This document shows positions 4,343-24,756 of a DNA stretch of 32,000 bases, one piece after another. The notes under the pieces are model-generated. The model was not told the origin of the DNA, did not search any database, and worked only from the letters and a program-made list of their open reading frames with translations. Source of the stretch: Pedobacter schmidteae (GTDB taxonomy: Bacteria; Bacteroidota; Bacteroidia; Sphingobacteriales; Sphingobacteriaceae); NCBI RefSeq assembly GCF_900564155.1, contig NZ_LS999839.1, positions 585,097-617,096 of the forward strand, written 5' to 3'. Within the stretch, counting starts at the first letter, position 1. Each line of letters starts with the position of its first letter. The translations under genes were made by a program, and so were the position numbers.

Positions 4343-4470
4343 TATATACTTCCTTTTGTCCGCCTCCCTGATTCGCTGAAGAACCAGACAAGCGATTTGC
4401 AATATTAAATTTGCTGCATGAGCAAATCGCATACGCTTAAATAGCGCATTAAATTTCATACATTTGAATT

Positions 4471-4605: not shown

Positions 4606-4622
4606 ATTACACTTATGTAAAA

Positions 4623-5744: not shown

Positions 5745-5833
5745 AAATTAAAACGGCCTGATATTGCCGCATCAGATATATGTAGGTTAAATAGCAGGGA
5801 GGGAGTAGAAGAAAAAAAATATTTTTTTGCGCG

Positions 5834-6415: not shown

Positions 6416-6448
6416 GTATCCTTGAGCGTTAATAATTAGGTCCCGCTA

Positions 6449-6456
6449 CAATAATA
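6449..6456 (-). promoter_or_regulatory. Candidate -7 promoter box TATTATTG upstream of the ECF sigma gene
   Basis: The minus strand reads CCTATTATTG, a one-off match to TAnnTTTG. It lies exactly 33 nt upstream of the ATG at 6415. The identical octamer lies exactly 33 nt upstream of the paralogous sigma start at 17230. Confidence 0.3.
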
Positions 6457-6508
6457 GGAATTTATATGCTAAGCACATAAAAATCAGGCATAAGATGAGG
6501 CTATCATT

Positions 6509-6553
6509 AAAAATTGTCGACCGAACGGCAATCCTGCACAGTCCGGTCGACAA
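6509..6553 (-). terminator. Intrinsic terminator closing locus B
   Basis: In minus-strand RNA, UUGUCGACCG (from 6544-6553) pairs with CGGUCGACAA (from 6514-6523). This is a 10-bp perfect stem around a 20-nt loop, followed directly by UUUUU (6509-6513). It begins 11 nt after the TlpA-like stop codon. Confidence 0.6.
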
Positions 6554-6564
6554 GCGTTGATCAA

Positions 6565-7947: not shown

Positions 7948-7974
7948 TTTTTGTACTCTGTTTGATATAAAAGC

Positions 7975-9495: not shown

Positions 9496-9517
9496 TGTTG
9501 TAAATTTTAAGTAAGCA

Positions 9518-10291: not shown

Positions 10292-10303
10292 CTTTCAATT
10301 AAA

Positions 10304-11743
10304 TTATCTAGGTGCTATTTCTGACAACGGCAATGGAAAAACATATTTTGTTGCATTCATGGTGATTGTTCCGTTTATAGTAAGCGGATTTGGAATGGCG
10401 GCCAGATTTTTCCGCTTATAGAAATACCACAATTGCCCTTCACCAAAAAACTCTTTCTGATATTCCTTTTGCAGCTCTGTAGCCAACACCGCGGTTACTG
10501 GCAAATCGGTCAGATTTCTTTTATTTCTTACGATGTTCAGATAGGTTACGTTCCCTTCACTCTCGGCGGCGATGTAATACATCTCACTTAGGCGAATTAA
10601 AGGCAGGGTATAACGGTATACATAAGATTTTTCAGGAATATCGGCGTATTTGAAAAAAGTACGGTAGTTTTTTCCACCAATACCGGTAAGTAACCACATC
10701 GGATTATAACGGTAATCATTTTCATTGTTTTCGAAAGTAGATTTTAACCGGGCGTCTGAAGGCGCAAGAATCTGGCTCTCTACTAAATCAGGTGAAAAAT
10801 AGTCCCTGTAATTATCATACATATCCAGACTCATCAAACCAAACAACAGCTCGGTACTGAATACCCGATCCGGATTTGCTTTATCATTGAGAATTTTAGC
10901 TGTTGTAATCCAGGGGAACTTTACGGCATTGTCAATTACTTCTTTTGCTGCCGTCAAAGCCGAGACTTTGTCTCCACGATAAAGATAGACCCTGGCCTGC
11001 AAGCCTTTTACTGCAAAATAATTGAGTCTATAGTTCCTTCCTGTAGTTAAGAAATTAATCGTACCGGTTGATGTAGGCGGATTTACCCCTCTGGTGCGCA
11101 CAGGATCATCGGCCAACAGCGTTTCGGCAGTTTTAAGATCACTGACGATCAAACTCATCACTTTATTTGCCGGCAAAATCTCGCTAACATCGGTTCCTGC
11201 TTTTGTATAATAAGGAATAGCCATTTTTAACGAATCAGCAGTAGCATATATCGGTCCATACATCCTTAATAAATCAAATTGCAGGTAAGCCCTCAATGCA
11301 TAGGCTTCTCCTTTTAATAACGACGCTGATTTTGTGTCCAGTACTCCCCTATAAGTATCCAGATTCTGAATAAACTTATTTACGTTTACTACATCAATAT
11401 AGGCGCTGGTCCAGATAAGATCCAGTGTTTTCTGTACCTTCTCGTCATTATAGGTATAAGTTTGATACTTTGTCAGATTATGCAATGCCCCTACATTATA
11501 ACACTGACCAAAGATATCTAGTGTAGTTCCTGTTAAGTTGGCACCATAAAGCTTGCTCTTACCCATATCCAGATAAATTCCATTCAATGCTTCGGCTATC
11601 CCATCAGGCGTCGAATAAAGCTGCTCTTCGGTAACTTTATCTTTCGGTTGTACATCCAGCCATTTGCTACAGGACATCACCGACAACAACAGCAGACCTA
11701 GTCCCACCGCTGTAAAAATATTTTTAAATGATTTCATCATCAT
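10304..11743 (-). CDS. SusD/RagB-family nutrient-binding outer-membrane lipoprotein
   Basis: The tracked ORF runs to 11893 but overlaps the SusC 3' end. The real start is probably MMMKSFKNIFTAVGLGLLLLSVMSCSKWLDV (ATG at 11743), 5 nt after the SusC stop (11749-11751). TPR-like SusD hallmarks are present: ..AYALRAYLQFDLLRMYG.., ..NYFAVKGLQARVYLY... Confidence 0.9.
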   Translation of the reverse strand: MMMKSFKNIFTAVGLGLLLLSVMSCSKWLDVQPKDKVTEEQLYSTPDGIAEALNGIYLDMGKSKLYGANLTGTTLDIFGQCYNVGALHNLTKYQTYTYNDEKVQKTLDLIWTSAYIDVVNVNKFIQNLDTYRGVLDTKSASLLKGEAYALRAYLQFDLLRMYGPIYATADSLKMAIPYYTKAGTDVSEILPANKVMSLIVSDLKTAETLLADDPVRTRGVNPPTSTGTINFLTTGRNYRLNYFAVKGLQARVYLYRGDKVSALTAAKEVIDNAVKFPWITTAKILNDKANPDRVFSTELLFGLMSLDMYDNYRDYFSPDLVESQILAPSDARLKSTFENNENDYRYNPMWLLTGIGGKNYRTFFKYADIPEKSYVYRYTLPLIRLSEMYYIAAESEGNVTYLNIVRNKRNLTDLPVTAVLATELQKEYQKEFFGEGQLWYFYKRKNLAAIPNPLTINGTITMNATKYVFPLPLSEIAPR

Positions 11744-11748
11744 AGGTT

Positions 11749-14700
11749 TTAAAAACTTGCATTTAAACTGAAAGAAAAAGATCGGGCAAATGGATATTCG
11801 ATACCACGTTCGCGCACAACAGACGAAATGCGAAATACATCGTTCATATATCCATTTAAGCGCAGTGCCGATAAGCCAAATTTCTTCAACCACTTTTGGG
11901 TCTGGAAATTATAGCCTAAGCTGATCGATTCGCCACTCAACACATTATCTGTCTGTACAAAACGGGACGACATTGGTGTGGTCTCCAACAGGCTTATTCC
12001 TTTAAACCGGGCAATATCACCAGGCTTTTTCCAGCGGTCATACAAGGCGCGTCTGTCTTGGTTGTTGGCCAGTTTCTCCATGCTGATATTCTCTACTTTA
12101 TCATATAAGGCACTGTTAAAAATATCCCGACCAAGGATATATCTCAGGTTCATATTAAAACTAAATCCCTTGTAGCTGATGGTATTGCTAAATACGCCCT
12201 CCACTTTGGGCTGACCATTTCCCACACGCCTGATATCGTTTACATCATATATAAAAGTATACTGTCCGTCTTGTTTTTGAAAAACTTCCATCCCTGTTCC
12301 AGGATCTATGCCCATAGAAGGAACGGCCCAAATGTCCTGCGGACTGTAACCATCCTTATAACGAATCAGACTTTTATTGGCTTGAGCCTTGGTATTCAAA
12401 GAGCCTAAGGTATTATTAAAGCCATCATATTTACTGGTATAAGCAGTTCCTGTAACACCTATGGTCCATACCATGCGGGATTCGGGCTTATAAACCGGCG
12501 AGTATTTTACCGTTGCTTCTATCCCTTTGATATCTAATGTCCCGGAATTGATCGGGTAAGAAGATATCCCGGTTGAAGAAGGCAGATCAATCGCTACCAC
12601 CAGGGGATCTGTTTTTTTCTGATATACATTGGCGTTGACTACCAAACGGCTTCCCAACATGACGATATCTGTGCCAATATTGGTTTGTACAGAATTTTGC
12701 CACCTCAGGTTCGCATTTCCCAACGCGTTCAATGTTACCCCCTGCCCAAATAAGTTGATATAAGAATCATATCCATAAGTAGAAATGGAAGAAACGGAGG
12801 CAAAATTCTGATTACCTGTATTTCCTCTGTTGGCATATAGTTTAAAAGTGTTTATCCAGGTCAGCTCCTTCATAAACTCCTCGCCATGTATGTTCCAACC
12901 CAGTCCTCCCACTACATAAGAAGTATATTTTTTGTTGGCCCCAAATGCTGTAGAACCATCATACCTGAATGAAAAATCGGCCAGATATTTATTTTTATAG
13001 GCGTAGTTGGCAGTAGCCAATATTGCGTTGGTACGTGTTTTACTAAATGCTGTAACCGGCCTCGAATTGGGCTTGTAGCTGTAGGCAAAATTTGGGTTAC
13101 CATTACTACTGGCAGGAAAACCTACAGCAGTAACCGCAATATTCTCATTATCATTATCGCGGATCTCACTTCGGATATTGGCAGTCAACGAATGGATCTC
13201 ATTAAACACTTTACCGTAAGTCAGCATCAGGTAACCATTATAACTAAAGTTATCGGTTTTACTGTTCCTGTAAGATCCCTTTTCAAAAAGATTGGTCTTA
13301 TCAAAAGTGGTGTTGAGTGGCGAAAGGAAATTTATCGCGGTCGTCACTCCTTTCTGTACCTGCACAGCCCCCTGGATTTTAAACTCCCTGTTCAGGTCTA
13401 TGATCATCTGCAGATTGTTTTGAATGGCCACATTTTTTGTATTGTTGACACTATTTAGTGAAGCATTATACATTGGATTATCAATCACGTATGAAAAAGT
13501 CTGATAATTAATACTCTCTTCCAGATAACGGCTATGCGGATTGTCTTTTCTGAAATAAGGATTGGCATTTGCAAAATTGGCAAAGGAACCATAAGGAGAT
13601 TCATCGGCTTTATAACCATTTATGTAAAGCTTATTGGAAAAATTGAATTTTCCGCGGCGATAAGAAAGGTCTATATTACCTGCCCAGTCCTGCCTGCCCG
13701 AGCCTTTCATTGCTCCTGTGGTATTTTTAAACGTTACGCCAACACCATAACGCAACGCATCATCTCCCCCGTCGGCATAAATAGAGTGCCGCTGACTAAA
13801 GCCTGTCTGCACGGGTACATTTAACCAATAGGTATTTACTCCCCGCTGTACTTCGGCTAAATGAACATTATAAAGGGAGTCGAGATCGCGCTGATAAGCA
13901 GGAATTGGATTAGCACCGATACCGCCGTAGGTATACCTACCCGAAAGCCTTTCAAACTCCAGCTTTTCGGCTGCATTCATCATATTGTAACCACTCAGGT
14001 CGGGCATTTCTATATTCAAATCGCTGCTGTAAGTCAGGTTCATTTGTCCCTGTCTGGGTTTAACGGTTTCAATAACCACCACACCGTTAGAAGCTTTTGA
14101 ACCATACATTGCCGTAGATGCAGCATCCTTAAGGATAGTAACCGATCCTATACGGTTCTGATTTAAATCGACAATCACGCGAAGCGAAGTTTCGAAACCG
14201 TCCAATATAAAAAGAGGTTGATTTGGATCGGAGGCGAACTGGTCCTGTAAGCTGGAAGAAATACTGGTTTTACCACGTATTTCTATATTTGGAAGTGCAT
14301 TTGGATTTGATCCAAGCTGATTGTTCTCCAACAGAATGAAAGAAGGATCTAATGCCCTCAAGCCCTGAATGATATTCTGGTTACCTACCGCTCGTAATTG
14401 CTCGCCGGTATATGACGCTGTAGCCCCGGTAAAACTACTTTTATTCCTGGTAATACCCGTACCTGTAATTACCACATCTTTCATATTGTTCTCTGCCAGT
14501 TCCAGTTTAACACTTAGTGGAGATTTTACACCCTTAACTTTAACTTCCCGACTCACATAACCGATATAGGAAATAACCAGAATATCGTTCTCACTAGCCG
14601 GCATGATTACAAAGCGGCCTTCGGCATTACTTACAGTACCACGACTGGCAGCTCCTTTTATTTTGATAGAAGCACCAGGTATAGGTGCATTATTTTCATC

Positions 14701-15042
14701 CAGCACCATACCACTTATCGGAAACTGCTGCTGTATAAAAAACTCAACCGGTTTATTTTTAATGATGATAGATCGGGCCTTGATTTCAAAAACCAAGTCC
14801 TGCCCTTCCAAGCATTCCTGTAAAGCATCCAACAATGGCGCATTACGCAAATCGATGGTAACCGGATGAACCGATTTCATCAGCGTTGCATCGTACATAA
14901 AATCATAACCTGTCTGATTTCTAATCTCCCTAAAAACTTTTTTTAAGGAAATATTCTTTTCTTTAAGTGTTACACGCTGGCCAAATGTGGCGGCACTAAC
15001 CTGCAACAAAGACATAGTCATCATAATTATGATCATTTTCAT
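11749..15042 (-). CDS. SusC/RagA-type TonB-dependent transporter with N-terminal STN signalling domain (paralog of 1031-4342)
   Basis: ORF 11749-15108. I prefer the start at Met23 (ATG 15042), which gives MKMIIIMMTMSLLQVSAATFGQ and aligns with the paralog's signal peptide. The start at 15108 cannot be excluded. STN segment: LKKVFREIRNQTGYDFMYDA..IIIKNK. Plug: DVVITG.., ILDGFE.., ILKDAASTAMYGSKASNGVVVIETVK. By eye it is highly similar to 1031-4342 across the plug region. Confidence 0.9.
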   Translation of the reverse strand: MKMIIIMMTMSLLQVSAATFGQRVTLKEKNISLKKVFREIRNQTGYDFMYDATLMKSVHPVTIDLRNAPLLDALQECLEGQDLVFEIKARSIIIKNKPVEFFIQQQFPISGMVLDENNAPIPGASIKIKGAASRGTVSNAEGRFVIMPASENDILVISYIGYVSREVKVKGVKSPLSVKLELAENNMKDVVITGTGITRNKSSFTGATASYTGEQLRAVGNQNIIQGLRALDPSFILLENNQLGSNPNALPNIEIRGKTSISSSLQDQFASDPNQPLFILDGFETSLRVIVDLNQNRIGSVTILKDAASTAMYGSKASNGVVVIETVKPRQGQMNLTYSSDLNIEMPDLSGYNMMNAAEKLEFERLSGRYTYGGIGANPIPAYQRDLDSLYNVHLAEVQRGVNTYWLNVPVQTGFSQRHSIYADGGDDALRYGVGVTFKNTTGAMKGSGRQDWAGNIDLSYRRGKFNFSNKLYINGYKADESPYGSFANFANANPYFRKDNPHSRYLEESINYQTFSYVIDNPMYNASLNSVNNTKNVAIQNNLQMIIDLNREFKIQGAVQVQKGVTTAINFLSPLNTTFDKTNLFEKGSYRNSKTDNFSYNGYLMLTYGKVFNEIHSLTANIRSEIRDNDNENIAVTAVGFPASSNGNPNFAYSYKPNSRPVTAFSKTRTNAILATANYAYKNKYLADFSFRYDGSTAFGANKKYTSYVVGGLGWNIHGEEFMKELTWINTFKLYANRGNTGNQNFASVSSISTYGYDSYINLFGQGVTLNALGNANLRWQNSVQTNIGTDIVMLGSRLVVNANVYQKKTDPLVVAIDLPSSTGISSYPINSGTLDIKGIEATVKYSPVYKPESRMVWTIGVTGTAYTSKYDGFNNTLGSLNTKAQANKSLIRYKDGYSPQDIWAVPSMGIDPGTGMEVFQKQDGQYTFIYDVNDIRRVGNGQPKVEGVFSNTISYKGFSFNMNLRYILGRDIFNSALYDKVENISMEKLANNQDRRALYDRWKKPGDIARFKGISLLETTPMSSRFVQTDNVLSGESISLGYNFQTQKWLKKFGLSALRLNGYMNDVFRISSVVRERGIEYPFARSFSFSLNASF

Positions 15043-15119
15043 AATTAATAATAGTTTGGGTGGTAGCCAAAGATTGGGCATACCTAGTTTAAAAGCATAT
15101 TTATTCATACTTTTGATTG

Positions 15120-15237
15120 GTTTGAGTTGATACAGAATGGTTGGACTAATTGTTCTTCTCTGTCTGCAAAGGACAGGGAATGGTCACCTCAAACTTTTGC
15201 CGGATTGTGCTTCCAACACCTTCCGGCTTTTGTATTT
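15120..15237 (+). ncRNA. Candidate cis-antisense small RNA in the second fecR-susC spacer
   Basis: Plus-strand TACTTTTG (15108-15115) matches TAnnTTTG. A hairpin plus T-tract follows 84 nt downstream (15199-15237). No plus-strand CDS is nearby. The geometry matches 4459-4605. The 5' end is only predicted. Confidence 0.3.
15199..15237 (+). terminator. Intrinsic-terminator-like hairpin plus T-tract oriented antisense to the operon
   Basis: GCCGGA (15199-15204) pairs with TCCGGC (15222-15227). An inner GTG/CAC (15207-15209 with 15217-15219) follows a 2x2 internal loop. The downstream flank is TTTTGTATTT. The outer stem differs from the paralogous hairpin at two positions, and both changes are compensated on the opposite arm. 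Confidence 0.45.
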
Positions 15238-15323
15238 AAGGCCACCTTTGTCTTGACACTAAGGTTTTGGTAATTGTTTTTTCATTGTTTTTAGATTTGG
15301 TTTGTTAGTTGTTGGGTTAATAT

Positions 15324-16472
15324 TTATTTGAGTACATTAATTTTTCTGCCTTCTATTTTAAAGTGAACCTTACCGGTTGATTCAATAATTGCTAACACTT
15401 CTCCAATACTTTTTGAACGTGAAACCAATCCTTCGAGCGTAATATTCTTTGGAACATTTTCCTGATAAACAATCTGTACATCATACCACCGGGCTATTTT
15501 CCGCATCATACTTTCCAGGTTTTCCTCCTTAAACACAAAATCCCCGTTTTTCCAGTCGATCTCGTCTTCAGCTTCTACTGCAACTACCTTTATCCCATCC
15601 TGTTTCAACTCCGACTGCTGTCCCGGTTTTAAGATAACCACAGAAATGCCATTTACTTTGGCTTTTACCTGTACGCTACCCTCCAGCAAAGTTGTCTTGG
15701 TACTGCCATCATCGGCATAGCTTTTCACATTAAAATGTGTGCCCAAAACCATTACCTCTTGTTCGGCCGTAGCCACAATGAATGGCTTACGATCTGCTTT
15801 TGCAATCTCAAAGTAGGCTTCTCCATTTAATTCTACTCTTCTTTCCCTTGACGAATTAATCTGAGCCGGGTATCTTAAAGAAGAGGCTGCATTTAACCAT
15901 ACCCTGGAACCGTCGGGCAAAAGGATCTGGTATTGCCCACCTTTAGGGGTTGCAATGGTATTATAAGCAATCCTTTGGGGATCTTCTACCGCCGAAGTCT
16001 CTGCGACACGATAAATCAGCTGCCCATCGGCTGTTTTAGTAATATGGATTCCCGACTGAACCCCCACGTTTCCTGTGTGCGCAGCTGTCAGGTCAATTAT
16101 TTTACCATTTGCCAATGTTAAAGTGGCCTTATTCCCTCCAGGAATAATAGTGGCCTGTGCCATGCCAGCGGCCTCCTCCATTACCTTTGTATCGTGGGAT
16201 AGGTAAAAAAACAAGCCTGCCGAAAGTGTCATCAGCACTGCGACAGCAGCTGCAATGGTTGGCCAACTATGAAATTTCACTGGCGATTTCTGCTCTTTCT
16301 GTAGATTCAGCAAAACCCCATCAAGGTCCGCTGTACGCTCTTCTAATCCTAATTCGGATGTTCCGGCTTCTTGATAAGTCAGGTACCAGCTTTCCAACAA
16401 GGCTTTTTCAGCCTCAGTAGCCTGCCCCTTTCTGTAATTGTCCAGTATGGTTTTTATTTCTTCTTCCTGCAT
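15324..16472 (-). CDS. FecR-family transmembrane anti-sigma factor (paralog of 4623-5744)
   Basis: 382 aa with a TM helix (TIAAAVAVLMTLSAGLFFYL). FecR-like core: ..GEAYFEIAKADRKPFIV......V.VLGTHFNVKSY. The same C-terminal ..VHFKIEGRKINV tail is present. Confidence 0.9.
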   Translation of the reverse strand: MQEEEIKTILDNYRKGQATEAEKALLESWYLTYQEAGTSELGLEERTADLDGVLLNLQKEQKSPVKFHSWPTIAAAVAVLMTLSAGLFFYLSHDTKVMEEAAGMAQATIIPGGNKATLTLANGKIIDLTAAHTGNVGVQSGIHITKTADGQLIYRVAETSAVEDPQRIAYNTIATPKGGQYQILLPDGSRVWLNAASSLRYPAQINSSRERRVELNGEAYFEIAKADRKPFIVATAEQEVMVLGTHFNVKSYADDGSTKTTLLEGSVQVKAKVNGISVVILKPGQQSELKQDGIKVVAVEAEDEIDWKNGDFVFKEENLESMMRKIARWYDVQIVYQENVPKNITLEGLVSRSKSIGEVLAIIESTGKVHFKIEGRKINVLK

Positions 16473-16645
16473 AATTCTTTAAAAGCCGGAATGGCTTTAT
16501 ATATAGTAAGACAAGATCATTTGACTGAGGAGGTATCCTTTCTTAAAATAAATTTATTTTTTTGTTTACATCACTTTAATGGCTAGATCGCCATCCTGAA
16601 TTTGTCATGCTGGCGCAAGCTAGTATCGGCATCTCCCATATGCAT

Positions 16646-17230
16646 TCAAAACCTGAATATATAAAGCAGATAAATGACCAATCCGAGTCTCTTTCTGAGC
16701 ACTCTAAGCGCATTTGTCATTTGTTTTTTTACAGTCTGTTCGGTAGTTCCCAAACGTTCTGCAATTTCCTTATGGCTAAGAAAGCCTTTGCGGCTCAGCT
16801 CAAAAACCTCTCGCATCCTTGGAGGCAAAGCAGCCACTTCCTTTTCAATCAATTCTCTTAACTGATTTTCTCTCACCCGGTGATCGGCAATCACAGTATC
16901 CTGATCAACAAAAGACTGAATGGAAACAATATATTTATTTCGCACTTCTTTACGGACCATCTGGTTCAGGATATAATTTCTTAAACTGGTATACAAATAA
17001 CCAGATAGATTAACATTCACATCCAAGCTTTCCCGTTTAGCCCATAGCATGGTAAATATTTCCTGAATGGTATCCTGTGCTTCTTCCCTGTTACGGGTTT
17101 TATTCCAGGCATGATTATGCAACACAAACTTATAGCGATGATAGATTTGCTCATATGCCGACCGATCTCCTGCTTTAAGTAGCTGAAGTAACTCTGCATC
17201 CGGAATAAGTGGTAAATCTGAATCTTGCAT
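16646..17230 (-). CDS. ECF-type RNA polymerase sigma factor (paralog of 5834-6415)
   Basis: The tracked ORF runs to 17266. I prefer the start MQDSDLPLIPDAELLQLLKAGDRSAYEQIY (ATG 17230) for two reasons. It aligns residue for residue with MQEQDLSRIPDDELLLLFKAGDRHAYEQIY of the paralog. It also places the shared TATTATTG box at the same 33-nt distance. Region 4: ALPPRMREVFELSRKGFLSHKEIAERLGTTEQTVKKQMTNA. Confidence 0.9.
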   Translation of the reverse strand: MQDSDLPLIPDAELLQLLKAGDRSAYEQIYHRYKFVLHNHAWNKTRNREEAQDTIQEIFTMLWAKRESLDVNVNLSGYLYTSLRNYILNQMVRKEVRNKYIVSIQSFVDQDTVIADHRVRENQLRELIEKEVAALPPRMREVFELSRKGFLSHKEIAERLGTTEQTVKKQMTNALRVLRKRLGLVIYLLYIFRF

Positions 17231-17263
17231 TTGGTCCCTGGATATTGAAATGAATTCCAAATG

Positions 17264-17271
17264 CAATAATA
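17264..17271 (-). promoter_or_regulatory. Candidate -7 promoter box TATTATTG upstream of the second ECF sigma gene
   Basis: The minus strand reads ACTTATTATTGCATTTGG. The box ends 33 nt upstream of the ATG at 17230, the same spacing as at 6449-6456. Confidence 0.3.
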
Positions 17272-17357: not shown

Positions 17358-17388
17358 TCGTCATCCTGAAATAAATTCAGGATGACGA
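17358..17388 (-). terminator. Intrinsic terminator of the GH2/GH63-like/kinase-lyase operon
   Basis: A perfect 13-bp stem: TCGTCATCCTGAA (17358-17370) pairs with TTCAGGATGACGA (17376-17388), with a 5-nt loop. It starts 12 nt after the TGA stop at 17401-17403. On the minus strand it is followed by TCGCTTTTATGAT. Confidence 0.65.
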
Positions 17389-17400: not shown

Positions 17401-19704
17401 TCAACTCCTTGCCCCAAGGACCTGGTCCAGATTGTACAGGAATTCATCGGCATTTGTTTTATTGAACAGCATCGGCGGCTTAATTTTTAAAACATTATGC
17501 AATGGCCCGTCGGTACTCAGTAAAAACCCCCGGTTCCTCATTTCTTCTACAATCTCATCTATTTCCGGTACCGCAGGCTCCAATGTTTCCCGATTTCTAA
17601 CCAATTCGGCCCCTACAAATAGGCCCTTACCTCGTACATCACCTATAATTGGATATTTTTCCATCAGGTCCTCCAATCCCTTCAAAAGGTAATTACCAGT
17701 TTCTAATGCCCTCTGTTGCAAGTCCTCCTCTTGAATTACCTGCATTACCGCAATTCCTGTCTCCATAGACACCGGATTTCCACCATAAGTATTAAAATAC
17801 TCCATTCCATTGTTAAAAGCTGCAGCAAGCTCCTCGGTTAAAACTACCGCAGCAAGCGGATGTCCATTCCCAATTGGCTTACCCAACACCACTATGTCCG
17901 GCTCCACGCCCTGCAATTCAAAACCCCAGAATTTTTCGCCCACCCGACCAAAGCCAACTTGCACCTCATCGGCAATGCACAAACCGCCGGCAGCCCTTAC
18001 ATGACGATATACTTCTTTCAGATAACCCTCGGGCAAAGGAATCTGTCCACCAACGCCCAACAACGTCTCACAGATAAAAGCAGCTATTCCGGTTTCTTTG
18101 GCCGCCAGCGTTTTAATGATTTCTGCTATATCCAAAGCGTATTTTGCTCCTGCTTCTTTGTCTCCATAACGATAAGTTCCTCTGTACAGATCGGGGTTCA
18201 TACCTTTATGAATATAAGGTTGTTGTCCGGTGCCACCCTTACCATCAAATTTATAGGGACTTAGCTCCATAGCTACTGTAGACGTACCGTGGTATGCATG
18301 ATCCAATACAATAACGTCCTTTTGTTTGGTAAAATGCCTGCTGATCCTGATAGCCAGGTCATTTGCCTCGCTGCCTGAATTACAGAAATAACAAACCTTT
18401 AACTTAGGCGGCAAACTTGAGGTGATCATTCTGGCATAACTAACCAGGCTGTCGTGCAGGTATCGGGTATTGGTATTGAGCTTTGCCAATTGCTTTTGCA
18501 TGGCTTTGACCACCACCGGGTGGCAATGTCCCACATGGCTTACGTTATTTACGCAGTCGATATAAGTATCACCTTTATCATCGTACAGGTATTGCAGGGC
18601 ACCTCTGCCAATTTTTAAATTCTTTTTATAGCTGATACTCAGGTTAGCTCCCACCACCTGTTTTCTTTCTTGTTTCAGGTCCTCATCGGCTGTTTCCGTC
18701 CCAAGTACCGGCGCATAACCACAACATATATTAAATCTATTTTGTGCCTGAAGCGGATTGATACGGATCCACTGGTACAAAAGTGTCCAGGCGTCGGCTT
18801 CCGAAATAAAGTGATGCGCATTATTGCTCTTACTCCTTTGCAGAGCAGAGGTGGTTACACTCATACACAAGCGGGCCGCGATAAGGTAATAGAGTACCGA
18901 AAGTTCGGTCTCTGCCAACGGATAAACCTGGTGATAGCTACGCAGTAATAACTCTGCAACAACCAATGGATCTGATCTTTTAAACAAGGCATAAGTACAA
19001 GCGACAGCTACATTATTGATCAGCTGACTTTCTACCATATCACCAAAATCAATGATTCCACTCAATAGCCCATTCGTGATCAGCACATTATAGTCGTTTG
19101 CGTCATTATGGATCACCGCTTTGCGCAGGTGTGGTAACAATGGCACAACCTCCATTTCGTACTGCAGCAGAAAATAAGCGACCATCGTTCTTTTTTCATG
19201 ATCTTTGATATGATGCAGATGCTGGCGACAATGCATAACCTGCGCCAGGTCCCACTCGATAAAACGATAAGTTGCAGGATGAGCAAAATCTTCCATCTGC
19301 AAATCCATACGGGCCAATCCCGCGCCCAGACTTTCAAATACAGTATCCGGACCTACTTTCAAATCTCCCAGAAAAGTCCCCTCCAGGTAGGATAACACTC
19401 TTAAGTACAAAGTTTTTCCATCCAGATCAAGTATTGTTTGTCCATCACCTTCCGCATTGAGATACACATCCTGTATCGGGATACTTTTGTCTTTCCGTTT
19501 TAAATGCTCCATCGCCTTAAGCTGGGCATCCAGGAAATAAGGATCGGCAGGATCGACGCTCACTTTAGCGATAAACTTGTTGCCTGTGTTATCCTGAAGC
19601 AAAAAATTCTGATCTTCATACCCTTGTATTTTATCAATTCGGGTCAATTCAAGATCGTAATATTGCTGGAGCAGTTCTTTAATATATTGTTCGGAAAGTA
19701 TCAT
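17401..19704 (-). CDS. Bifunctional fusion: N-terminal hydroxylysine-kinase-like APH-fold kinase plus C-terminal AGXT2L-type phospho-lyase (class-III aminotransferase fold, PLP-dependent)
   Basis: 767 aa with no signal peptide. N-terminal half: ..GYEDQNFLL.., catalytic loop [13 protein letters not shown], metal-binding IIDFGDM. These match my recollection of human HYKK/AGPHD1 (YDDQNF, INHGDLNDHNILI, ILDFGDM). C-terminal half: [86 protein letters not shown]. These match remembered ETNPPL/PHYKPL (AGXT2L1/2) blocks almost block for block. Confidence 0.85.
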
Positions 19705-19706: not shown

Positions 19707-21662
19707 CTAATTTTCTTTTAACAGCATTAACAAATGAGCAGCAGACCAGCTGAAATTTCTGGCATTTAACCCCTTACCGCTAATCGGGTGATAATTTTCA
19801 CGGATCGGTCCATCTGCTGACAGTCCTTCCGCATTTTGCAATAGCTTTTCTAAAAAATAACCGGCCTCTTTATGATAGCCATATTGATGCAGGCCATTTA
19901 GACCGAAATATACCTGATCCAACCAAACGGGGCCTCTCCAATAACCTTTCAAGGGGTCGAATTTCCCATTATCGGCTGCAAGCGTCGGCAAAGGCACACT
20001 GGTGTTAAACTTAGCCTTATTTTGCATAATCCGCAACACCTGTTCAGCCTTTTTAGTATCCGGTAAACCGGCCCATAGTGGAATCCAACCTTCGGGACCT
20101 TCGGCAGCAATCCACTGTCCATCCATCAAACGGTCATAATAAAATCCCCGCTCTATATGATAAAAAGCAGTATCAATCTGCTTTTTTAACGGCAACAGTT
20201 GTTTACGCCAATGCTTTGCCTCTTCGGGTAAGCTGAGCGCATCGGCAATTTTAGCCAGATATTCCTTTTCAGCGTACAAATAGGCATTCAGATCCACCGA
20301 TTCCTGATTGAGTGACCAGGCTTTGTCATTATTTTTAAGCAATAAGGCATGATCAAAACGTACTGCATTGTCCATCCCACTTTCCCAGGCGGCAGCAATC
20401 CTGGTTCCATCTGTTGCACCGTATTCACATAGTCCATTTTTATTATGATCCCGATTGGTATACCACCAATGGTGATACCGCTTCAGTTTTGGATAAATAT
20501 TTTTCAGAAAGGCCAAACCTGGTGACTGCTCATGAACCTTCCAGACTGCCCATGCGGCCAGCGGTGGCTTGGTATCTCTCCAGTTGTTTTCCTTTTTATC
20601 GGCATAAACGCAATCGGCCACCATTCCTTGTTCATCCTGATAATCAAACATAGAAAGGATATTACTTTTGGCCAGCTCCGGATGAAAATAAGCTAAGCCA
20701 ACAGCCTGTTTCCAGCTATCCCAACTCCAAAAACCATAAAAACCCTGGTAGTTCAGCGAAGGGAACACCCCATCGTGCAACAGGTCTTTTGCTTTACTGC
20801 GCCAATTGCTGACCAGGGTAACTATTGATTTTACGGCAATCCTTTTCTGTGCTGGGTCTTTTAACCGATTTCCCGGAGCATTAAAATAACCGTTCAAATA
20901 GTCATTCCATCTCCGTTTATTGGCACTAAGCAAAGTTTGAAAATCAGCATCTTTAAATCCTCCTATCAACTTTGCCTGTTCAAGGTCATACCGCTCATTA
21001 CGGGCTATAAAGAAACTTTTCCCCGGGGCTAAGGTTATCCCTTCATGTTTTGCACTATAGCTGTTTTTTCCGAATTCAAAGGTCAATGGAGCGGTTGGCG
21101 GAAAAGCCAGCTGGAAACGATGCCATCCCTTAAAATTAAGGCTAACCCCATTACCTTGCTTTTTTAGTTCGCTCTCTTTTAACAACGTCAAACCCGACCA
21201 CTCCAATTGCAGTTTCTTTGATATTGAAGAAAGATTCCTGATCCTGGTACCAATCATGGCTTCGCGATTAGAAGTAAAAATCAACTGTAAACTAATTTTC
21301 AAACCATCCACCAACAACTCCTGGCTCAGCAAGCCCGGATAGTAATGAATCTCGGCTTTAGCCTGGTTTAGCATTACCGACTTACCATCCACCTTTATGG
21401 TTAATTTGGCCATGGTATTGGCCAACCAGCTACCGCTCATATCCATTACCATCGGCCCAATAAAGGTCCCAAAATCTTCGGGAACAACCGGAAGCGTATA
21501 AGCATGCCAGGCGCCCATATCTGAAAAGACGTTGGCTTCAATTAACGAAGGATCGTGTACATGATGGCCTAATCTCAAAACGTCGGGAAACTGCTCCCTT
21601 GAACTTTGTGCAAAAGCAGTACCCAGTGTAAAACCAAGTATGCATAATAAATAGTACTTCAT
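19707..21662 (-). CDS. Periplasmic (alpha/alpha)6-barrel glycoside hydrolase, GH63-like (YgjK / MGH1-like alpha-glucosidase clan; GH37/GH65 relatives not excluded)
   Basis: 651 aa with a signal peptide (MKYYLLCILGFTLGTAFAQ). A beta-sandwich N-domain precedes FWSWDSWKQA, AWESGMDNAVRFD, YWRGPVWLDQVYF and a C-terminal ENYHPISG..NFSWSAAHLL. These are clan GH-G-type motifs as I remember them from GH63/GH37 enzymes. Its start codon is 1 nt after the GH2 stop. Confidence 0.65.
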   Translation of the reverse strand: MKYYLLCILGFTLGTAFAQSSREQFPDVLRLGHHVHDPSLIEANVFSDMGAWHAYTLPVVPEDFGTFIGPMVMDMSGSWLANTMAKLTIKVDGKSVMLNQAKAEIHYYPGLLSQELLVDGLKISLQLIFTSNREAMIGTRIRNLSSISKKLQLEWSGLTLLKESELKKQGNGVSLNFKGWHRFQLAFPPTAPLTFEFGKNSYSAKHEGITLAPGKSFFIARNERYDLEQAKLIGGFKDADFQTLLSANKRRWNDYLNGYFNAPGNRLKDPAQKRIAVKSIVTLVSNWRSKAKDLLHDGVFPSLNYQGFYGFWSWDSWKQAVGLAYFHPELAKSNILSMFDYQDEQGMVADCVYADKKENNWRDTKPPLAAWAVWKVHEQSPGLAFLKNIYPKLKRYHHWWYTNRDHNKNGLCEYGATDGTRIAAAWESGMDNAVRFDHALLLKNNDKAWSLNQESVDLNAYLYAEKEYLAKIADALSLPEEAKHWRKQLLPLKKQIDTAFYHIERGFYYDRLMDGQWIAAEGPEGWIPLWAGLPDTKKAEQVLRIMQNKAKFNTSVPLPTLAADNGKFDPLKGYWRGPVWLDQVYFGLNGLHQYGYHKEAGYFLEKLLQNAEGLSADGPIRENYHPISGKGLNARNFSWSAAHLLMLLKEN

Positions 21663-21663: not shown

Positions 21664-24600
21664 CTAATCCTTTGCTCTTTCTGTTAAAATTTGTTGCTTA
21701 AATACCGGCCTCAACGTAAAAGAATAATGGTAATCCTGATAAGGCAGACGGTATTGCGGATGTGTTTGGGCACCCCAACTGTTGTCGCCCCCCACACCCA
21801 TCTGCTGATGATCTATGTTCCACCAGATCAGGTCTTCGTTCACCATCGACCCGCCGTGAATGTTTTCTTTGGCATCCTTATCAAAATCAAGATGTTTCAT
21901 ATCAAAGTGCAATATTCCCGTACTCAATTCCTGCTTACCGAAAGCCATTAATCCTGCACCGCTAGCATTCCTTAATGCCACCCAACGGATGCCAGTACGA
22001 TACCCACTTTCCTGTGCCCGTGGATAGGGATAAAAAAGTGCATCAGCTTTCATATGGTACAGATCAATGTCCGCAGCATAATTCCGGTCGATATAATTAT
22101 CAAATGGCCCACGACCTAGCCAGCTTGCCTGTTCATATTCCGGATTTAAGATCATGCGCATCCCAATCCGTTGTGGCTCCGGATAGTTACCTTTACCGGT
22201 TTTGAGCAGATAATCGACCGTCACATCTCCGTTCCCTTTTATCAGATAAGTCAGGATACAGTTAGCATCAACTATTGGTAATTGATAATTTGCTTCCAAC
22301 ACATAGCCCTCGGATGTTTGACGGTGTGTAAACGATTGGAGCACTGCTGTCTGAAAGGCATGTTGCCAAACCTTGCTTCTGATCTGCAAACTATTGCCAA
22401 TATCATTATCTGTAGCCGCACGCCAGAAATGAGGCTCTAATGCTTTTTGAATCAACTCCTTCCCTGAAATCCGATAACTTTCCAATAAACCTGTTTTCTG
22501 GTTAAATCCAACAACAAAGTCTTTCCCAAAAAATTGAAGTGCAACCTCCCCGGCTTTCAGGGTTAGTTCGGGCAGCTTTAATGCCATTTTTTTGGCGGTA
22601 GGGATTGATGGAAAACTAAACTGCTCTCTGGCAATAACAAAACCTGCAGGTAATAAGCCAGATGCAGTTCGGGTGCGGAATTCCAGATTAATGAAATATT
22701 CCACGTCAGGTTTCCGGACAAAGGGGGGGACATTTAACTGGATTTCCTTTTCTTCCTGAGGCAACAAAGCAAAATCAGCTACCTGTCCAGTCACTATTAC
22801 CTCTCCATCTGCTTTTATAGACCAGCTCAACTGATAATCAGACAGATCTGTAAAATCAAAACGGTTTTTCAGTTTAAAAATATACTTTTCGGCATCTTTA
22901 AGTTCAAAGGCAACATTCTGATACACTTTTTGCAGTTCATAAGCCTGGGGATGAAAACTTCTGTCGGCCGACAAAAGGCCGTCGGCGCAGAAACTGGTAT
23001 CACTGGTCTGGCCTACTGTTCCCATATCCCTACCAAATCCCCATATGTTATTTCCCTTTTTGTCTTTCAGGGCAAAGGTCTGATCAGAAAAATCCCAGAT
23101 AAAACCGCCTTGTAATTGTGGGTATTTATAAATCAGGTCCCAATCGTCCTTTAGATTTCCTCCACTATTGCCCATCATATGTGCATATTCGCACTGGATA
23201 AGTGGTCTGCTACGCCAGGTTTTCACATAGTTTTCCATTACGGTAATGGACTTATACATGGGACAATAGATATCCGAATAACGTTCATCCTTTGCCGCTT
23301 CATATTGAACCGGACGGCTATCGTCATTTGCTTTTAGCCAACTATAACAATCTTTTAGATTTTGCCCAAACCCGCTTTCATTTCCTGTAGACCAGGTTAT
23401 GATACAGGTAAAGTTCTTGTCGCGTTCCCACATGCGCTGCACCCTGTCCAGATAAGCATTTTTCCACAATGGTTTGTCGGACAACGTTTGTAATGGCGTA
23501 AAACTCATGCCGTCACATTCTATATTGGCTTCATCTATGACATACAAACCATATTTATCGCAAAGCGAGTACCAGTGCTCGGCATTGGGGTAATGACTGG
23601 TGCGAACCGCATTGATATTCAGCTCTTTCATCAACCGGATGTCGCGTAGCATATCAGCCTCAGTGATCACCTTGGCGGTAGTCATGTTGTGTTCATGCCG
23701 GTTCACCCCCTTGATTTTGATCGGTACACCATTGACCAGAAACAGCCCGTTCTTCACCTCAACGGTTCTGAAACCCATGGGGTGTACAATGCTTTCAATA
23801 GCCTTCCCTTTTTGGTTAAGATGCACGATTTTAAGCGTATAAAGATTTGGGTGTTCGGCATCCCAGGCTTTTACATGTTCAATAGTATGCTGGAAATTAA
23901 ATACTTTACTTAGTTTAATCGGCTGCTTGTCCTGATATACCAGGTTACCTGATCCATCCCTCAATTCTACTTTTAAAGATCCCGATTCTGTTTTTGCAGG
24001 AATTTTATTGAATTCAACTTTCAATGCCAATAATCCGTTTTTAAACTGGGTATCCAGGGTACTTTTCACCTTAAAATCAAACAGATGAAAGTTTGGTCTG
24101 GCGATGAGGTATACACTTCTTTCAATTCCGCTTAACTTCCACATGTCCTGCCCCTCCAGATAAGTTGCATCACTAAACCGAAATACCTGTAGCGAAACTG
24201 TGTTTTTACCCGGTCTCAGTACTTTTGTCAAATCAAATTCTGTGGGTGTTTTACTGTCCTTGCTAAAGCCCAGATACTGTCCGTTAACCCACAAGTAGAA
24301 AAAAGAGTTGACTGCCCCCAGGTGAATAAACACCTGTTTACCTTTCCAGGCGGGATCGAACATAAAATCACGCTGATAAGAACCTACAGGGTTATAATCT
24401 TTGGGCACAAAAGGTGGATTGGCCGGAATAGGATACTCTACGTCGGTAAATATGTATTTATCCTTTCCTTCGGTCTGCCAGTTGGCGGGTACCTTAATTT
24501 GCCCCCAGCTTTTGGTCTGATCCATTTTTTTAAAAAAATCAGTCGGCCGCAGCGTAGGATTCTGAACAATTTTAAACCGCCACAGCCCATCCAGTGAAAG

Positions 24601-24756
24601 TTTAGCGGACTCTTCCGGAATAAAATAGGCATGTGCAGGAATGGTGTTGAGCGAAGGCTTTTCGGGATTTTCCCAATCATTTTTCTGAGCAGAAACCAGT
24701 ATAGGCACAAAAAGGAGCGCACTAAAAATAGATTTTAGAGTTCTATAAAAATTCAT
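21664..24756 (-). CDS. lacZ: GH2 LacZ-type beta-galactosidase (periplasmic)
   Basis: 1030 aa with a signal peptide (..LFVPILVSAQ). It carries VNRHEH, the acid/base block ITWSTGNESG and the nucleophile block IQCEYAHMMGNSGGN. These correspond to LacZ WSLGNESG (E461) and ILCEYAHAMGNS (E537). The C-terminal Bgal_small_N-like region includes ..HFWRAATDNDIG... Confidence 0.9.
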   Translation of the reverse strand: MNFYRTLKSIFSALLFVPILVSAQKNDWENPEKPSLNTIPAHAYFIPEESAKLSLDGLWRFKIVQNPTLRPTDFFKKMDQTKSWGQIKVPANWQTEGKDKYIFTDVEYPIPANPPFVPKDYNPVGSYQRDFMFDPAWKGKQVFIHLGAVNSFFYLWVNGQYLGFSKDSKTPTEFDLTKVLRPGKNTVSLQVFRFSDATYLEGQDMWKLSGIERSVYLIARPNFHLFDFKVKSTLDTQFKNGLLALKVEFNKIPAKTESGSLKVELRDGSGNLVYQDKQPIKLSKVFNFQHTIEHVKAWDAEHPNLYTLKIVHLNQKGKAIESIVHPMGFRTVEVKNGLFLVNGVPIKIKGVNRHEHNMTTAKVITEADMLRDIRLMKELNINAVRTSHYPNAEHWYSLCDKYGLYVIDEANIECDGMSFTPLQTLSDKPLWKNAYLDRVQRMWERDKNFTCIITWSTGNESGFGQNLKDCYSWLKANDDSRPVQYEAAKDERYSDIYCPMYKSITVMENYVKTWRSRPLIQCEYAHMMGNSGGNLKDDWDLIYKYPQLQGGFIWDFSDQTFALKDKKGNNIWGFGRDMGTVGQTSDTSFCADGLLSADRSFHPQAYELQKVYQNVAFELKDAEKYIFKLKNRFDFTDLSDYQLSWSIKADGEVIVTGQVADFALLPQEEKEIQLNVPPFVRKPDVEYFINLEFRTRTASGLLPAGFVIAREQFSFPSIPTAKKMALKLPELTLKAGEVALQFFGKDFVVGFNQKTGLLESYRISGKELIQKALEPHFWRAATDNDIGNSLQIRSKVWQHAFQTAVLQSFTHRQTSEGYVLEANYQLPIVDANCILTYLIKGNGDVTVDYLLKTGKGNYPEPQRIGMRMILNPEYEQASWLGRGPFDNYIDRNYAADIDLYHMKADALFYPYPRAQESGYRTGIRWVALRNASGAGLMAFGKQELSTGILHFDMKHLDFDKDAKENIHGGSMVNEDLIWWNIDHQQMGVGGDNSWGAQTHPQYRLPYQDYHYSFTLRPVFKQQILTERAKD

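What the first reader, a model, noticed from the sequence alone, without database searches (positions are those of the whole stretch)
17401..19704. Single polypeptide fusing a HYKK-like kinase to an AGXT2L-like phospho-lyase
SEEN: residues 1 to about 330 carry APH/hydroxylysine-kinase hallmarks ([14 protein letters not shown] catalytic loop, IDFGDM). Residues from about 350 to 767 carry near-verbatim AGXT2L blocks ([70 protein letters not shown] with the PLP lysine).

ESTABLISHED: the human kinase (AGPHD1) and lyases (AGXT2L1/2) were linked partly because bacterial homologs are adjacent or fused. The two steps are consecutive: phosphorylation of a hydroxyl near an amine, then PLP-dependent phosphate elimination.

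INFERENCE: the fusion would channel a phospho-intermediate. Its substrate (hydroxylysine, ethanolamine or another amino alcohol released by the neighbouring glycosidases) cannot be told from sequence alone.
Basis: partly seen in the sequence, partly recalled or inferred. Interest (0 to 1): 0.6.

Follow-up and report, generated by a model that had tools for sequence, protein, structure and literature searches.

The report
Fused hydroxylysine kinase and phospho-lyase
A soil Pedobacter encodes one protein joining a kinase to a phosphate-removing lyase, and its gene neighbours here and in other bacteria suggest it breaks down hydroxylysine freed from the glucose-galactose tag of collagen; this kind of fusion was already reported, but its bacterial substrate was not.

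Summary
A 767-aa ORF lies at 17401-19704, on the minus strand. All ten quoted motifs are present.

- **N-terminal half:** an APH-family kinase with an intact catalytic loop and metal-binding motif.
- **C-terminal half:** a class-III PLP enzyme. It scores 459 bits against human ethanolamine-phosphate phospho-lyase, 310 against the Arthrobacter phospholyase, and at most 184 against any other solved class-III enzyme (racemases, decarboxylases, transaminases).

The fusion itself is not new. As I recall, bacterial two- and three-part fusions were the clue used in 2012 to identify the human enzymes, and some records already carry the name.

Gene context adds a substrate call.
- The gene is the cytoplasmic last gene of a SusC-SusD-GH2-GH63 operon. 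Eight of 11 close relatives also sit beside a YgjK-like GH63 and a beta-galactosidase.
- The same trio recurs with shuffled order in other Bacteroidota and in a Phycisphaera.
- In five close relatives a 2-oxoadipate dioxygenase (HglS) gene lies beside the fusion.
- This genome has an HglS / aminoadipate-semialdehyde dehydrogenase / YdiJ-like operon elsewhere.

This favours 5-hydroxylysine from collagen-type Glc-Gal-Hyl over phosphoethanolamine.

Likeness to HYKK specifically, channelling and enzyme activity were not tested. The scan noted the same system before on other DNA (52 notes, at least 39 genomes).

The parts
17401..19704 (-). 767-aa kinase/phospho-lyase fusion ORF (P0001)
   Evidence: Single open frame. 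Pfam APH plus Aminotran_3. Relatives 80-42% identical with the same architecture.
18700..19704 (-). Kinase half, residues 1-335 (Pfam APH match at residues 28-253 = 18946-19623)
   Evidence: APH E 1.9e-16. Only a weak solved relative, homoserine kinase 2ppq, E 1e-7. No signal peptide.
19087..19110 (-). Kinase catalytic loop HNDANDYN (H199, D201, N206)
   Evidence: Present. H199, D201 and N206 are invariant in 10 fusions down to 42% identity.
19036..19053 (-). Metal-binding IDFGDM motif (D219)
   Evidence: Present. I218, D219, F220 and D222 are invariant.
17404..18669 (-). PLP-dependent phospho-lyase half, residues 346-767
   Evidence: Aminotran_3 E 4.2e-75. Human ETNPPL 6tor E 2.6e-136 over residues 346-763; Arthrobacter phospholyase 5g4i E 2.6e-91.
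17878..17880 (-). Codon of K609, the predicted PLP Schiff-base lysine ([10 protein letters not shown])
   Evidence: Aligned with the GKP lysine of ETNPPL. Invariant in the fusion alignment. That this is the PLP lysine is inferred from family knowledge.
17358..17388 (-). 13-bp hairpin terminator just after the stop codon: end of the operon
   Evidence: Terminator scan; sequence read.
19707..21662 (-). YgjK-like GH63 alpha-glucosidase with signal peptide; its stop is 2 nt before the fusion start
   Evidence: Pfam MGH1-like_GH and YgjK_N. E. coli YgjK E 1e-90. YgjK catalytic D501 and E727 are conserved as D431 and E622. N-terminus read.
21664..24756 (-). GH2 LacZ-type beta-galactosidase with signal peptide; its stop is 1 nt before the GH63 start
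   Evidence: Pfam GH2 domains. NCBIfam beta_gal_Bga2A 969 bits, cut-off 999. N-terminus read.
24962..26482 (-). SusD-like lipoprotein
   Evidence: Pfam SusD_RagB and SusD-like_3. Lipoprotein-type N-terminus.
26503..29610 (-). SusC-like TonB-dependent transporter
   Evidence: Pfam Plug, TonB_dep_Rec_b-barrel and CarbopepD_reg_2.
29768..31375 (-). TPR-repeat protein upstream of SusC, probable locus regulator
   Evidence: Pfam TPR families. The same gene precedes the cassette in Pedobacter africanus. A 32%-identical homologue lies in the G391 locus. The regulatory role is inferred.

Best explanation
The gene encodes a cytoplasmic bifunctional enzyme. The N-terminal APH-type kinase phosphorylates the 5-hydroxyl of free 5-hydroxy-L-lysine. 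The C-terminal PLP enzyme then eliminates phosphate and ammonia from 5-phosphohydroxylysine, giving 2-aminoadipate 6-semialdehyde. This is the vertebrate HYKK plus PHYKPL route in a single chain. It is the last gene of a SusC/SusD operon. The two secreted glycosidases of that operon would free the hydroxylysine in the periplasm from collagen-type Glc(alpha1-2)Gal(beta1-O)Hyl: the YgjK-like GH63 removes glucose and the GH2 removes galactose. The semialdehyde then enters the genome's operon encoding aminoadipate-semialdehyde dehydrogenase, HglS and a YdiJ-like dehydrogenase (2-oxoadipate arising via an unidentified aminotransferase), ending at 2-oxoglutarate. Shown here: the domain identities, the conserved catalytic residues, the operon structure, the recurrent gene neighbourhoods, and the presence of the downstream operon. 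Inferred: the substrate, the reaction products, the cell compartments and the flux.
For: Domains: APH plus Aminotran_3. The lyase half scores 459 bits to human ETNPPL and 310 to the Arthrobacter phospholyase, against 184 or less for any other solved class-III enzyme. Catalytic residues are invariant across fusions down to 42% identity.

Operon: 1-nt and 2-nt gaps between GH2, GH63 and the fusion. The glycosidases carry signal peptides and the fusion does not. A terminator follows the fusion.

Glycosidase link:
- SusC-SusD-GH2-GH63-fusion recurs in Solitalea, Chitinophaga, Flavitalea, other Pedobacter species and a metagenome contig, with unrelated flanking genes.
- Gene order is shuffled in G391 (GH63, fusion, GH2) and in G199 (fusion, GH2, GH63).
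- A GH42 beta-galactosidase replaces GH2 in G051.
- GH63 and GH2 are fused into one 1659-aa ORF beside the fusion in a Phycisphaera MAG.
- A YgjK-like GH63 occurs in only 10 of 401 sampled genomes of the phylum. Four of those 10 have the kinase/lyase gene, and in all four it lies within 5 kb.

Product link:
- HglS (2-oxoadipate dioxygenase/decarboxylase, PF07063) lies immediately downstream of the fusion in four relatives: L016, L110, L111 and L112.
- In G051, HglS, an ALDH 72% identical to this genome's aminoadipate-semialdehyde dehydrogenase and a YdiJ-like oxidase bracket the GH63-GH42-fusion genes.
- The window's own genome has HglS, an L-piperidine-6-carboxylate dehydrogenase (831 bits, cut-off 730) and a YdiJ-like gene as one operon.

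Collagen link: three-domain relatives sit in or near hydroxyproline-catabolism gene sets.
Against: - No enzyme activity was measured.
- The kinase half could not be compared with animal HYKK. Its only solved relative is a homoserine kinase, at 35 bits.
- The best solved match of the lyase half is the phosphoethanolamine enzyme ETNPPL. PHYKPL was not available for comparison.
- No inner-membrane hydroxylysine transporter is present in the operon. The SSF transporter found beside the cassette in two other phyla has no close orthologue in this genome.
- This genome has no Pro_racemase-family gene, so it lacks the usual hydroxyproline route expected of a general collagen degrader.
- Most family members sampled across phyla have no glycosidase neighbours: 76 of the 80 loci.
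- Two of the 11 close relatives have uninformative contexts.
- No 2-aminoadipate aminotransferase was identified.
Confidence: 0.7

Rival explanations
1. The fusion is an ethanolamine kinase plus O-phosphoethanolamine phospho-lyase. It would yield acetaldehyde, ammonia and phosphate, and its position in the glycosidase operon would be incidental.
For: The best solved match of the lyase half is human ethanolamine-phosphate phospho-lyase. The second best is the Arthrobacter enzyme deposited as a phospholyase.
Against: The repeated neighbours are HglS, aminoadipate-semialdehyde dehydrogenase and a YdiJ-like D-2-hydroxyglutarate dehydrogenase. These process a six-carbon amino-acid skeleton, not acetaldehyde. 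No ethanolamine-utilisation genes appeared among the recurrent neighbour clusters. From memory, the vertebrate paralogues ETNPPL and PHYKPL are closely related, so the top hit does not settle the substrate.
Confidence: 0.08
2. The two-step chemistry is the same, but it acts on a different hydroxy-amine freed by the alpha-glucosidase and beta-galactosidase from some other Glc-Gal glycoconjugate. Candidates include another hydroxylysine isomer, a hydroxy-ornithine or a sphingoid-type base.
For: The substrate was not measured. Most family members lack glycosidase neighbours, so the family may cover several substrates. This genome lacks hydroxyproline catabolism genes.
Against: [quoted passage not shown] From my own knowledge, I know of no other natural Glc-Gal-O-amino-alcohol whose carbon skeleton leads to 2-aminoadipate.
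Confidence: 0.15
3. The C-terminal half is a true class-III aminotransferase, as most public records name it, and the kinase half has an unrelated or regulatory role.
For: Pfam Aminotran_3 matches, and NCBI names most relatives 'aminotransferase class III-fold PLP-dependent enzyme'.
Against: Characterised phospho-lyases score 459 and 310 bits, while every other solved class-III enzyme scores 184 or less. Three lyase-type sequence blocks shared with ETNPPL are absent from the genome's four other class-III paralogues. Persistent fusion to a kinase in more than 80 loci argues for a phosphorylated substrate.
Confidence: 0.05

Closest known systems
Vertebrate hydroxylysine catabolism: hydroxylysine kinase HYKK (AGPHD1) plus 5-phosphohydroxy-L-lysine phospho-lyase PHYKPL (AGXT2L2), Veiga-da-Cunha et al., J Biol Chem 2012 (PMID 22241472)
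   Same: The same two protein families and the same proposed pair of consecutive reactions. The product feeds an ALDH7A1-type aminoadipate-semialdehyde dehydrogenase, which this genome also encodes.
   Different: Here there is one polypeptide instead of two separate proteins. It is embedded in a SusC/SusD glycan-utilisation operon. The bacterial enzyme is uncharacterised. The HYKK and PHYKPL sequences could not be compared here, and the paper was not held.
Human ethanolamine-phosphate phospho-lyase ETNPPL (AGXT2L1), PDB 6TOR
   Same: Best solved relative of residues 346-763 (E 2.6e-136). The PLP-lysine block and the [18 protein letters not shown] and SPYKF blocks are conserved.
   Different: ETNPPL is a stand-alone enzyme acting on phosphoethanolamine. 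Gene context here points to a six-carbon amino-acid substrate.
Arthrobacter phospholyase, a class-III transaminase homologue, PDB 5G4I/5G4J
   Same: A bacterial class-III PLP enzyme deposited as a phospholyase, and the second-best solved relative (E 2.6e-91).
   Different: It is stand-alone with no kinase domain, and it is clearly more distant than ETNPPL.
Bacterial three-domain proteins of NCBIfam PRK06148 / PRK06149 (kinase, M23 peptidase-like domain, class-III PLP enzyme; about 1000 aa)
   Same: The closest curated bacterial models (929 and 618 bits). The outer two domains are the same. Some members sit in the same GH63/GH2 cassettes.
   Different: The window protein lacks the middle Peptidase_M23 domain (PF01551) and scores below both cut-offs. 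Two-domain forms occur at several separate places among three-domain forms in the lyase tree.

Membership tests
Class-III PLP ammonio-phospho-lyases (ETNPPL / PHYKPL type) | Aminotransferase class-III fold with the PLP-binding lysine and the aspartate of the DEVQ block | tested here: met
   Pfam Aminotran_3 E 4.2e-75. K609 and D579 are aligned with ETNPPL and invariant among the fusions.
Class-III PLP ammonio-phospho-lyases (ETNPPL / PHYKPL type) | Closer in sequence to characterised phospho-lyases than to any other class-III enzyme (transaminase, racemase or decarboxylase) | tested here: met
   459 and 310 bits for the two lyases, against 184 or less for all other solved class-III enzymes. 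Own-genome class-III paralogues are 28-35% identical and lack three of the lyase-type blocks. In the tree the paralogue is separated by very long branches.
Class-III PLP ammonio-phospho-lyases (ETNPPL / PHYKPL type) | Catalyses 1,2-elimination of phosphate and ammonia rather than transamination | not testable with these tools
   Needs an enzyme assay.
PHYKPL-type specificity (5-phosphohydroxylysine rather than phosphoethanolamine) | Substrate is 5-phosphohydroxy-L-lysine and the product is 2-aminoadipate semialdehyde | tested here: inconclusive
   Indirect support only. HglS lies next to the fusion in five relatives, and aminoadipate-semialdehyde dehydrogenase with a YdiJ-like gene in one. The downstream operon is present in this genome. 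No PHYKPL sequence was reachable: one search returned bacterial proteins only.
Hydroxylysine kinase (HYKK / AGPHD1) family | APH / protein-kinase-like fold with the HxDxxxxN catalytic loop and a DFG-like metal-binding aspartate | tested here: met
   Pfam APH E 1.9e-16. H199, D201, N206 and D219 are invariant. The motifs were located.
Hydroxylysine kinase (HYKK / AGPHD1) family | Closer to animal HYKK than to aminoglycoside, homoserine or choline/ethanolamine kinases | not testable with these tools
   No HYKK sequence or model was available. The only solved relative is homoserine kinase 2ppq at 35 bits, and no aminoglycoside kinase scored below E = 1. Some public records name relatives 'hydroxylysine kinase / 5-phosphonooxy-L-lysine phospho-lyase', which is an automatic annotation and not a test.
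NCBIfam PRK06148 / PRK06149 three-domain proteins | Score over the curated cut-off, with the full kinase, M23 and PLP-enzyme architecture | tested here: not met
   929 bits against a cut-off of 1128, and 618 against 973. The match comes in two stretches and the middle domain is absent.

The most novel reading that the evidence does not exclude
The fusion is the cytoplasmic end of a dedicated bacterial route for feeding on the glycosylated hydroxylysine of collagen, a route I did not find described in the searchable literature. The steps would be: SusC/SusD uptake of Glc-Gal-Hyl or small glycopeptides; periplasmic removal of glucose by a YgjK-like GH63 and of galactose by GH2; then kinase and lyase conversion of hydroxylysine to aminoadipate semialdehyde, which is funnelled through the HglS route to 2-oxoglutarate. 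This would give a physiological substrate both to the bacterial kinase/lyase fusions known since 2012 and to YgjK-type GH63 enzymes.
Probability: 0.6. Interest if true: 0.65.

Novelty: new member of a known kind. Interest (0 to 1): 0.5.

Why it matters
Public records mostly call this protein an aminotransferase, which is probably wrong. As I recall, bacterial kinase/lyase fusions were the clue that revealed the human hydroxylysine and phosphoethanolamine enzymes in 2012, yet I found no report of what the bacterial proteins themselves act on.

The gene neighbourhoods assembled here give a specific, cheap-to-test answer: hydroxylysine released from collagen-type Glc-Gal-Hyl, with the product going into the 2-oxoadipate/HglS route.

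If this is right:
- it defines a nutrient niche for soil and marine Bacteroidota and some other phyla, namely the protease-resistant glyco-amino acid of collagen, which from my own knowledge animals excrete in urine;
- it supplies a natural substrate for YgjK-type GH63 glucosidases;
- it provides ready-made enzymes for assaying or removing collagen glycosylation markers.

Tried and rejected
- **Plus-strand reading.** It gives only stops. The gene is on the minus strand.
- **Reaching animal sequences.** A search with the lyase half alone was meant to reach animal ETNPPL and PHYKPL for a tree. It returned only bacterial proteins and fragments scoring 565 bits or more. So no tree against the human paralogues or HYKK was built. 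Since the two human lyases are, from memory, close paralogues, such a tree would probably not separate the substrates anyway.
- **2012 paper.** It is not held in the library, and two further literature searches did not recover its text. The statement about bacterial fusions in that paper rests on my memory of its abstract. One review confirms only that comparative genomics was used.
- **Kinase half against solved structures.** Only a weak homoserine kinase hit was found.
- **Structure prediction.** Not run, because its outputs give no inter-domain confidence or docking. It could not test channelling or substrate fit.
- **Missing inner-membrane transporter and hydroxyproline genes in this genome.** No close SSF orthologue and no Pro_racemase family member.
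- **De novo clustering of neighbours in 89 loci.** No recurrent neighbour family matched an ethanolamine-utilisation gene. The most recurrent specific neighbours were GH2, GH63 and SusD; a generic ABC-transporter ATPase family tied GH2 at 7 loci.
Full report
**Observation.** The stated interval holds one open frame of 767 codons, but on the minus strand. The plus strand is full of stops. Pfam finds the APH phosphotransferase family at residues 28-253 and aminotransferase class III at 364-763. The start codon lies 2 nt after the stop of the upstream gene. A 13-bp hairpin with a T-rich tail follows the stop.

**C-terminal half.**
- Against all solved structures, the best matches are human ethanolamine-phosphate phospho-lyase (6tor, E 2.6e-136, 459 bits over residues 346-763) and the Arthrobacter protein deposited as a phospholyase (5g4i, 310 bits).
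- The next entries are racemases, dialkylglycine decarboxylase and true transaminases, all at 184 bits or less.
- The residue-level alignment shows the quoted blocks to be identical or nearly identical to ETNPPL, including the GKP lysine block.
- Three of these blocks are absent from the four other class-III paralogues of the same genome, which are only 28-35% identical.

**N-terminal half.**
- The catalytic-loop histidine, aspartate and asparagine and the metal-binding aspartate are invariant in ten fusions down to 42% identity.
- The only solved relative is a homoserine kinase at 35 bits, and no aminoglycoside kinase matched. So it is not an orthologue of those kinases.
- I could not obtain an animal HYKK sequence, so likeness to HYKK specifically remains untested. 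Some public records name relatives 'hydroxylysine kinase / 5-phosphonooxy-L-lysine phospho-lyase', while most say 'aminotransferase class III-fold'.

**Distribution and architecture.**
- The genome is a Pedobacter: the nearest proteins are 76-80% identical and come from that genus.
- In a sample of 401 genomes of the phylum, 37 have a lyase-type gene. Only 7 have the two-domain form; most are frames of roughly 960-1140 aa.
- The extra middle part of the long form is Peptidase_M23, matching NCBIfam PRK06148/PRK06149. The window protein matches both models below cut-off.
- A scan of one genome per species found fusions in Acidobacteriota, Planctomycetota, Chloroflexota, Gemmatimonadota, Proteobacteria and even Asgard archaeal MAGs.
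- In a tree of the lyase half, the window protein falls in a fully supported Bacteroidota clade of seven. Two-domain forms occur at several separate places among three-domain forms.

**Context in the window.** On the minus strand the order is: TPR-repeat protein, SusC, SusD, GH2 LacZ-type beta-galactosidase, YgjK-like GH63, fusion.
- The last three genes are separated by 1 and 2 nt.
- Both glycosidases have signal peptides, SusD has a lipoprotein-type N-terminus, and the fusion has no signal peptide.
- The GH63 protein matches E. coli YgjK at E 1e-90 and keeps YgjK's catalytic D501 and E727.
[quoted passage not shown] That disaccharide is the one collagen carries on hydroxylysine (abstract of PMC12003778; PMC8626586).

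**Context elsewhere: the glycosidase link.**
- The five-gene cassette recurs with unrelated flanks in Solitalea canadensis, Chitinophaga eiseniae, Pedobacter africanus, P. steynii, Flavitalea flava and a metagenome contig.
- In G391 the order is GH63, three-domain fusion, GH2, next to a divergent TPR-SusC-SusD set. In G199 the order is fusion, GH2, GH63.
- In G051 a GH42 beta-galactosidase takes the place of GH2.
- In a Phycisphaera MAG, GH63 and GH2 are one 1659-aa ORF directly upstream of the fusion, preceded by an SSF transporter. A 61%-identical SSF transporter lies beside a lyase gene and a GH2 gene in a Marinimicrobia MAG.
- A YgjK-like GH63 is rare: 10 of 401 genomes in the phylum sample. 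Four of those ten carry the kinase/lyase gene, and in all four it lies within 5 kb. Chance co-occurrence would predict about one genome, with no adjacency.
- Among 11 close relatives (58% identity or more, window included), 8 are linked to GH63 plus a beta-galactosidase.

**Context elsewhere: the product link.**
- HglS, the 2-oxoadipate dioxygenase/decarboxylase of lysine catabolism (PF07063; papers listed), lies immediately downstream of the fusion in P. steynii, Flavitalea and two metagenome contigs. One of those contigs has no glycosidases at all.
- In G051 the order is: AsnC-type regulator gene (called from its N-terminal sequence only), HglS, aldehyde dehydrogenase, GH63, GH42, fusion, and a 982-aa FAD/Fe-S oxidase.
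- The window's own genome has the same three downstream genes as one operon beside a LysR regulator gene. Its dehydrogenase passes the NCBIfam equivalog cut-off for L-piperidine-6-carboxylate dehydrogenase (831 bits against 730), and its best solved relatives are antiquitin / ALDH7A1. The oxidase is most like the D-2-hydroxyglutarate dehydrogenase YdiJ.
- These are the enzymes needed downstream of 2-aminoadipate semialdehyde, the product of the vertebrate 5-phosphohydroxylysine lyase. They would make no sense for acetaldehyde from phosphoethanolamine.

**Collagen link in more distant relatives.** A three-domain fusion in a Saprospiraceae MAG sits among a DHDPS-family protein, an aldehyde dehydrogenase, a mu-crystallin-type reductase, a proline-racemase-family protein, a DAO-type oxidase and an M24 Xaa-Pro peptidase. 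From my own knowledge, this is the usual hydroxyproline catabolic gene set. Proline-racemase-family genes lie within 10 kb of the fusion or lyase gene in four sampled loci.

**Mechanism proposed.**
1. Glc-Gal-Hyl or small glycopeptides cross the outer membrane through SusC/SusD.
2. GH63 removes glucose and GH2 removes galactose in the periplasm.
3. Free hydroxylysine enters the cytoplasm through an unidentified carrier.
4. The kinase half phosphorylates the 5-hydroxyl. The PLP half eliminates phosphate and ammonia to give aminoadipate semialdehyde.
5. The separate operon's enzymes, with an unidentified aminotransferase, convert this through aminoadipate, 2-oxoadipate and D-2-hydroxyglutarate to 2-oxoglutarate.

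Shown: the domains, the conserved residues, the operon layout, the recurrent neighbourhoods and the downstream operon. Inferred: the substrates, the products, the compartments, and any advantage of the fusion. Channelling is possible; matched expression of the two activities is an equally simple explanation.

**Weak points.**
- There is no biochemical evidence.
- Neither HYKK nor PHYKPL could be compared.
- No transporter or aminoadipate aminotransferase was identified.
- This genome has no proline-racemase-family gene, so it may use the glyco-amino acid rather than collagen as a whole.
- Most fusions across phyla have no glycosidase neighbours, so the family may also serve unglycosylated hydroxylysine or other substrates.

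**Novelty.**
- The fusion as such is known. From my memory of the abstract of Veiga-da-Cunha et al. 2012, bacterial bi- and tri-functional kinase/PLP-enzyme proteins prompted the identification of AGPHD1, AGXT2L1 and AGXT2L2. The paper was not held. A review confirms only that comparative genomics was used.
- I found no paper linking these fusions, GH63 or a SusC/SusD locus to hydroxylysine.
- I noted the glycosyl-hydroxylysine idea before consulting earlier notes. The scan holds 52 similar notes from at least 39 genomes, with follow-up agents reaching the same reading. These are not independent evidence.

**Verdict.** This is a real and correctly described two-domain enzyme, a new member of a known kind. 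Its likely substrate can now be named with moderate confidence from gene context. Interest is moderate, because the gene marks a testable bacterial pathway for collagen's glycosylated hydroxylysine that is apparently undescribed.

Noticed in passing
L023:5001-9980 (Phycisphaera MAG): GH63 and GH2 domains are joined in a single 1659-aa ORF with a signal-peptide-like N-terminus. It lies directly upstream of a kinase/lyase fusion and downstream of an SSF transporter. This is a second fusion event linking steps of the same proposed pathway.
   Followed up: partly
L006:1093-14215 (genome G051): One cluster holds, in order: an AsnC-type regulator gene (called from its N-terminus only), HglS, an aldehyde dehydrogenase, GH63, a GH42 beta-galactosidase in place of GH2, the kinase/lyase fusion, and a YdiJ-like FAD/Fe-S oxidase. 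This is nearly the whole proposed route in one place.
   Followed up: yes
L091:4665-20500, L084:12973-19446, L053:7652-9872, L080:5792-6835: In L091 and L084, three-domain (kinase, M23, lyase) relatives lie among hydroxyproline-catabolism-type genes: proline-racemase family, DAO, DHDPS family, aldehyde dehydrogenase, mu-crystallin type, M24 peptidase. L053 has proline-racemase and mu-crystallin-type genes beside its fusion. L080, whose lyase gene is cut by the contig end, has a proline-racemase-family gene nearby.
   Followed up: partly
G000:C1:4674652-4681071 (own genome, outside the window; L102:6652-13071): A LysR regulator gene lies divergent from an operon of HglS, L-piperidine-6-carboxylate dehydrogenase and a YdiJ-like oxidase. 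This is the likely sink for aminoadipate semialdehyde.
   Followed up: yes
own genome (whole): No proline-racemase-family gene was found in a 99.99%-complete genome. The organism therefore seems to lack the usual hydroxyproline route, despite carrying the putative hydroxylysine locus.
   Followed up: partly
L037, L043 (Thorarchaeota and Promethearchaeota MAGs): Three-domain kinase/M23/lyase genes occur on contigs assigned to Asgard archaea and cluster with bacterial three-domain forms in the tree. This could reflect gene transfer or binning error.
   Followed up: no
L087, L089, L090, L095 (Planctomycetota and Verrucomicrobia MAGs): Lyases lacking a recognisable kinase half form a basal clade. 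Each lies just downstream of a member of the same neighbour family, which Pfam identifies in L087 as an NCS1-type permease (Transp_cyt_pur). They possibly have a different substrate.
   Followed up: no
window 29768-31375: The TPR-repeat protein upstream of SusC is kept with the cassette in Pedobacter africanus and has a 32%-identical homologue in the G391 locus. Chitinophaga instead has a FecR-type gene upstream. The regulators differ while the enzyme set stays the same.
   Followed up: partly
window 17860-18264 (+) and 18670-18948 (+): ORFs of 134 and 92 aa lie antisense inside the fusion gene. Nothing supports them as genes, and they are most likely chance frames.
   Followed up: no
window 1-17266: Two paralogous ECF sigma / FecR / STN-SusC / SusD modules lie downstream on the same strand. 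The second carries DUF4843, PKD-like and thioredoxin-like genes and no glycosidase. They are unrelated to the finding.
   Followed up: no
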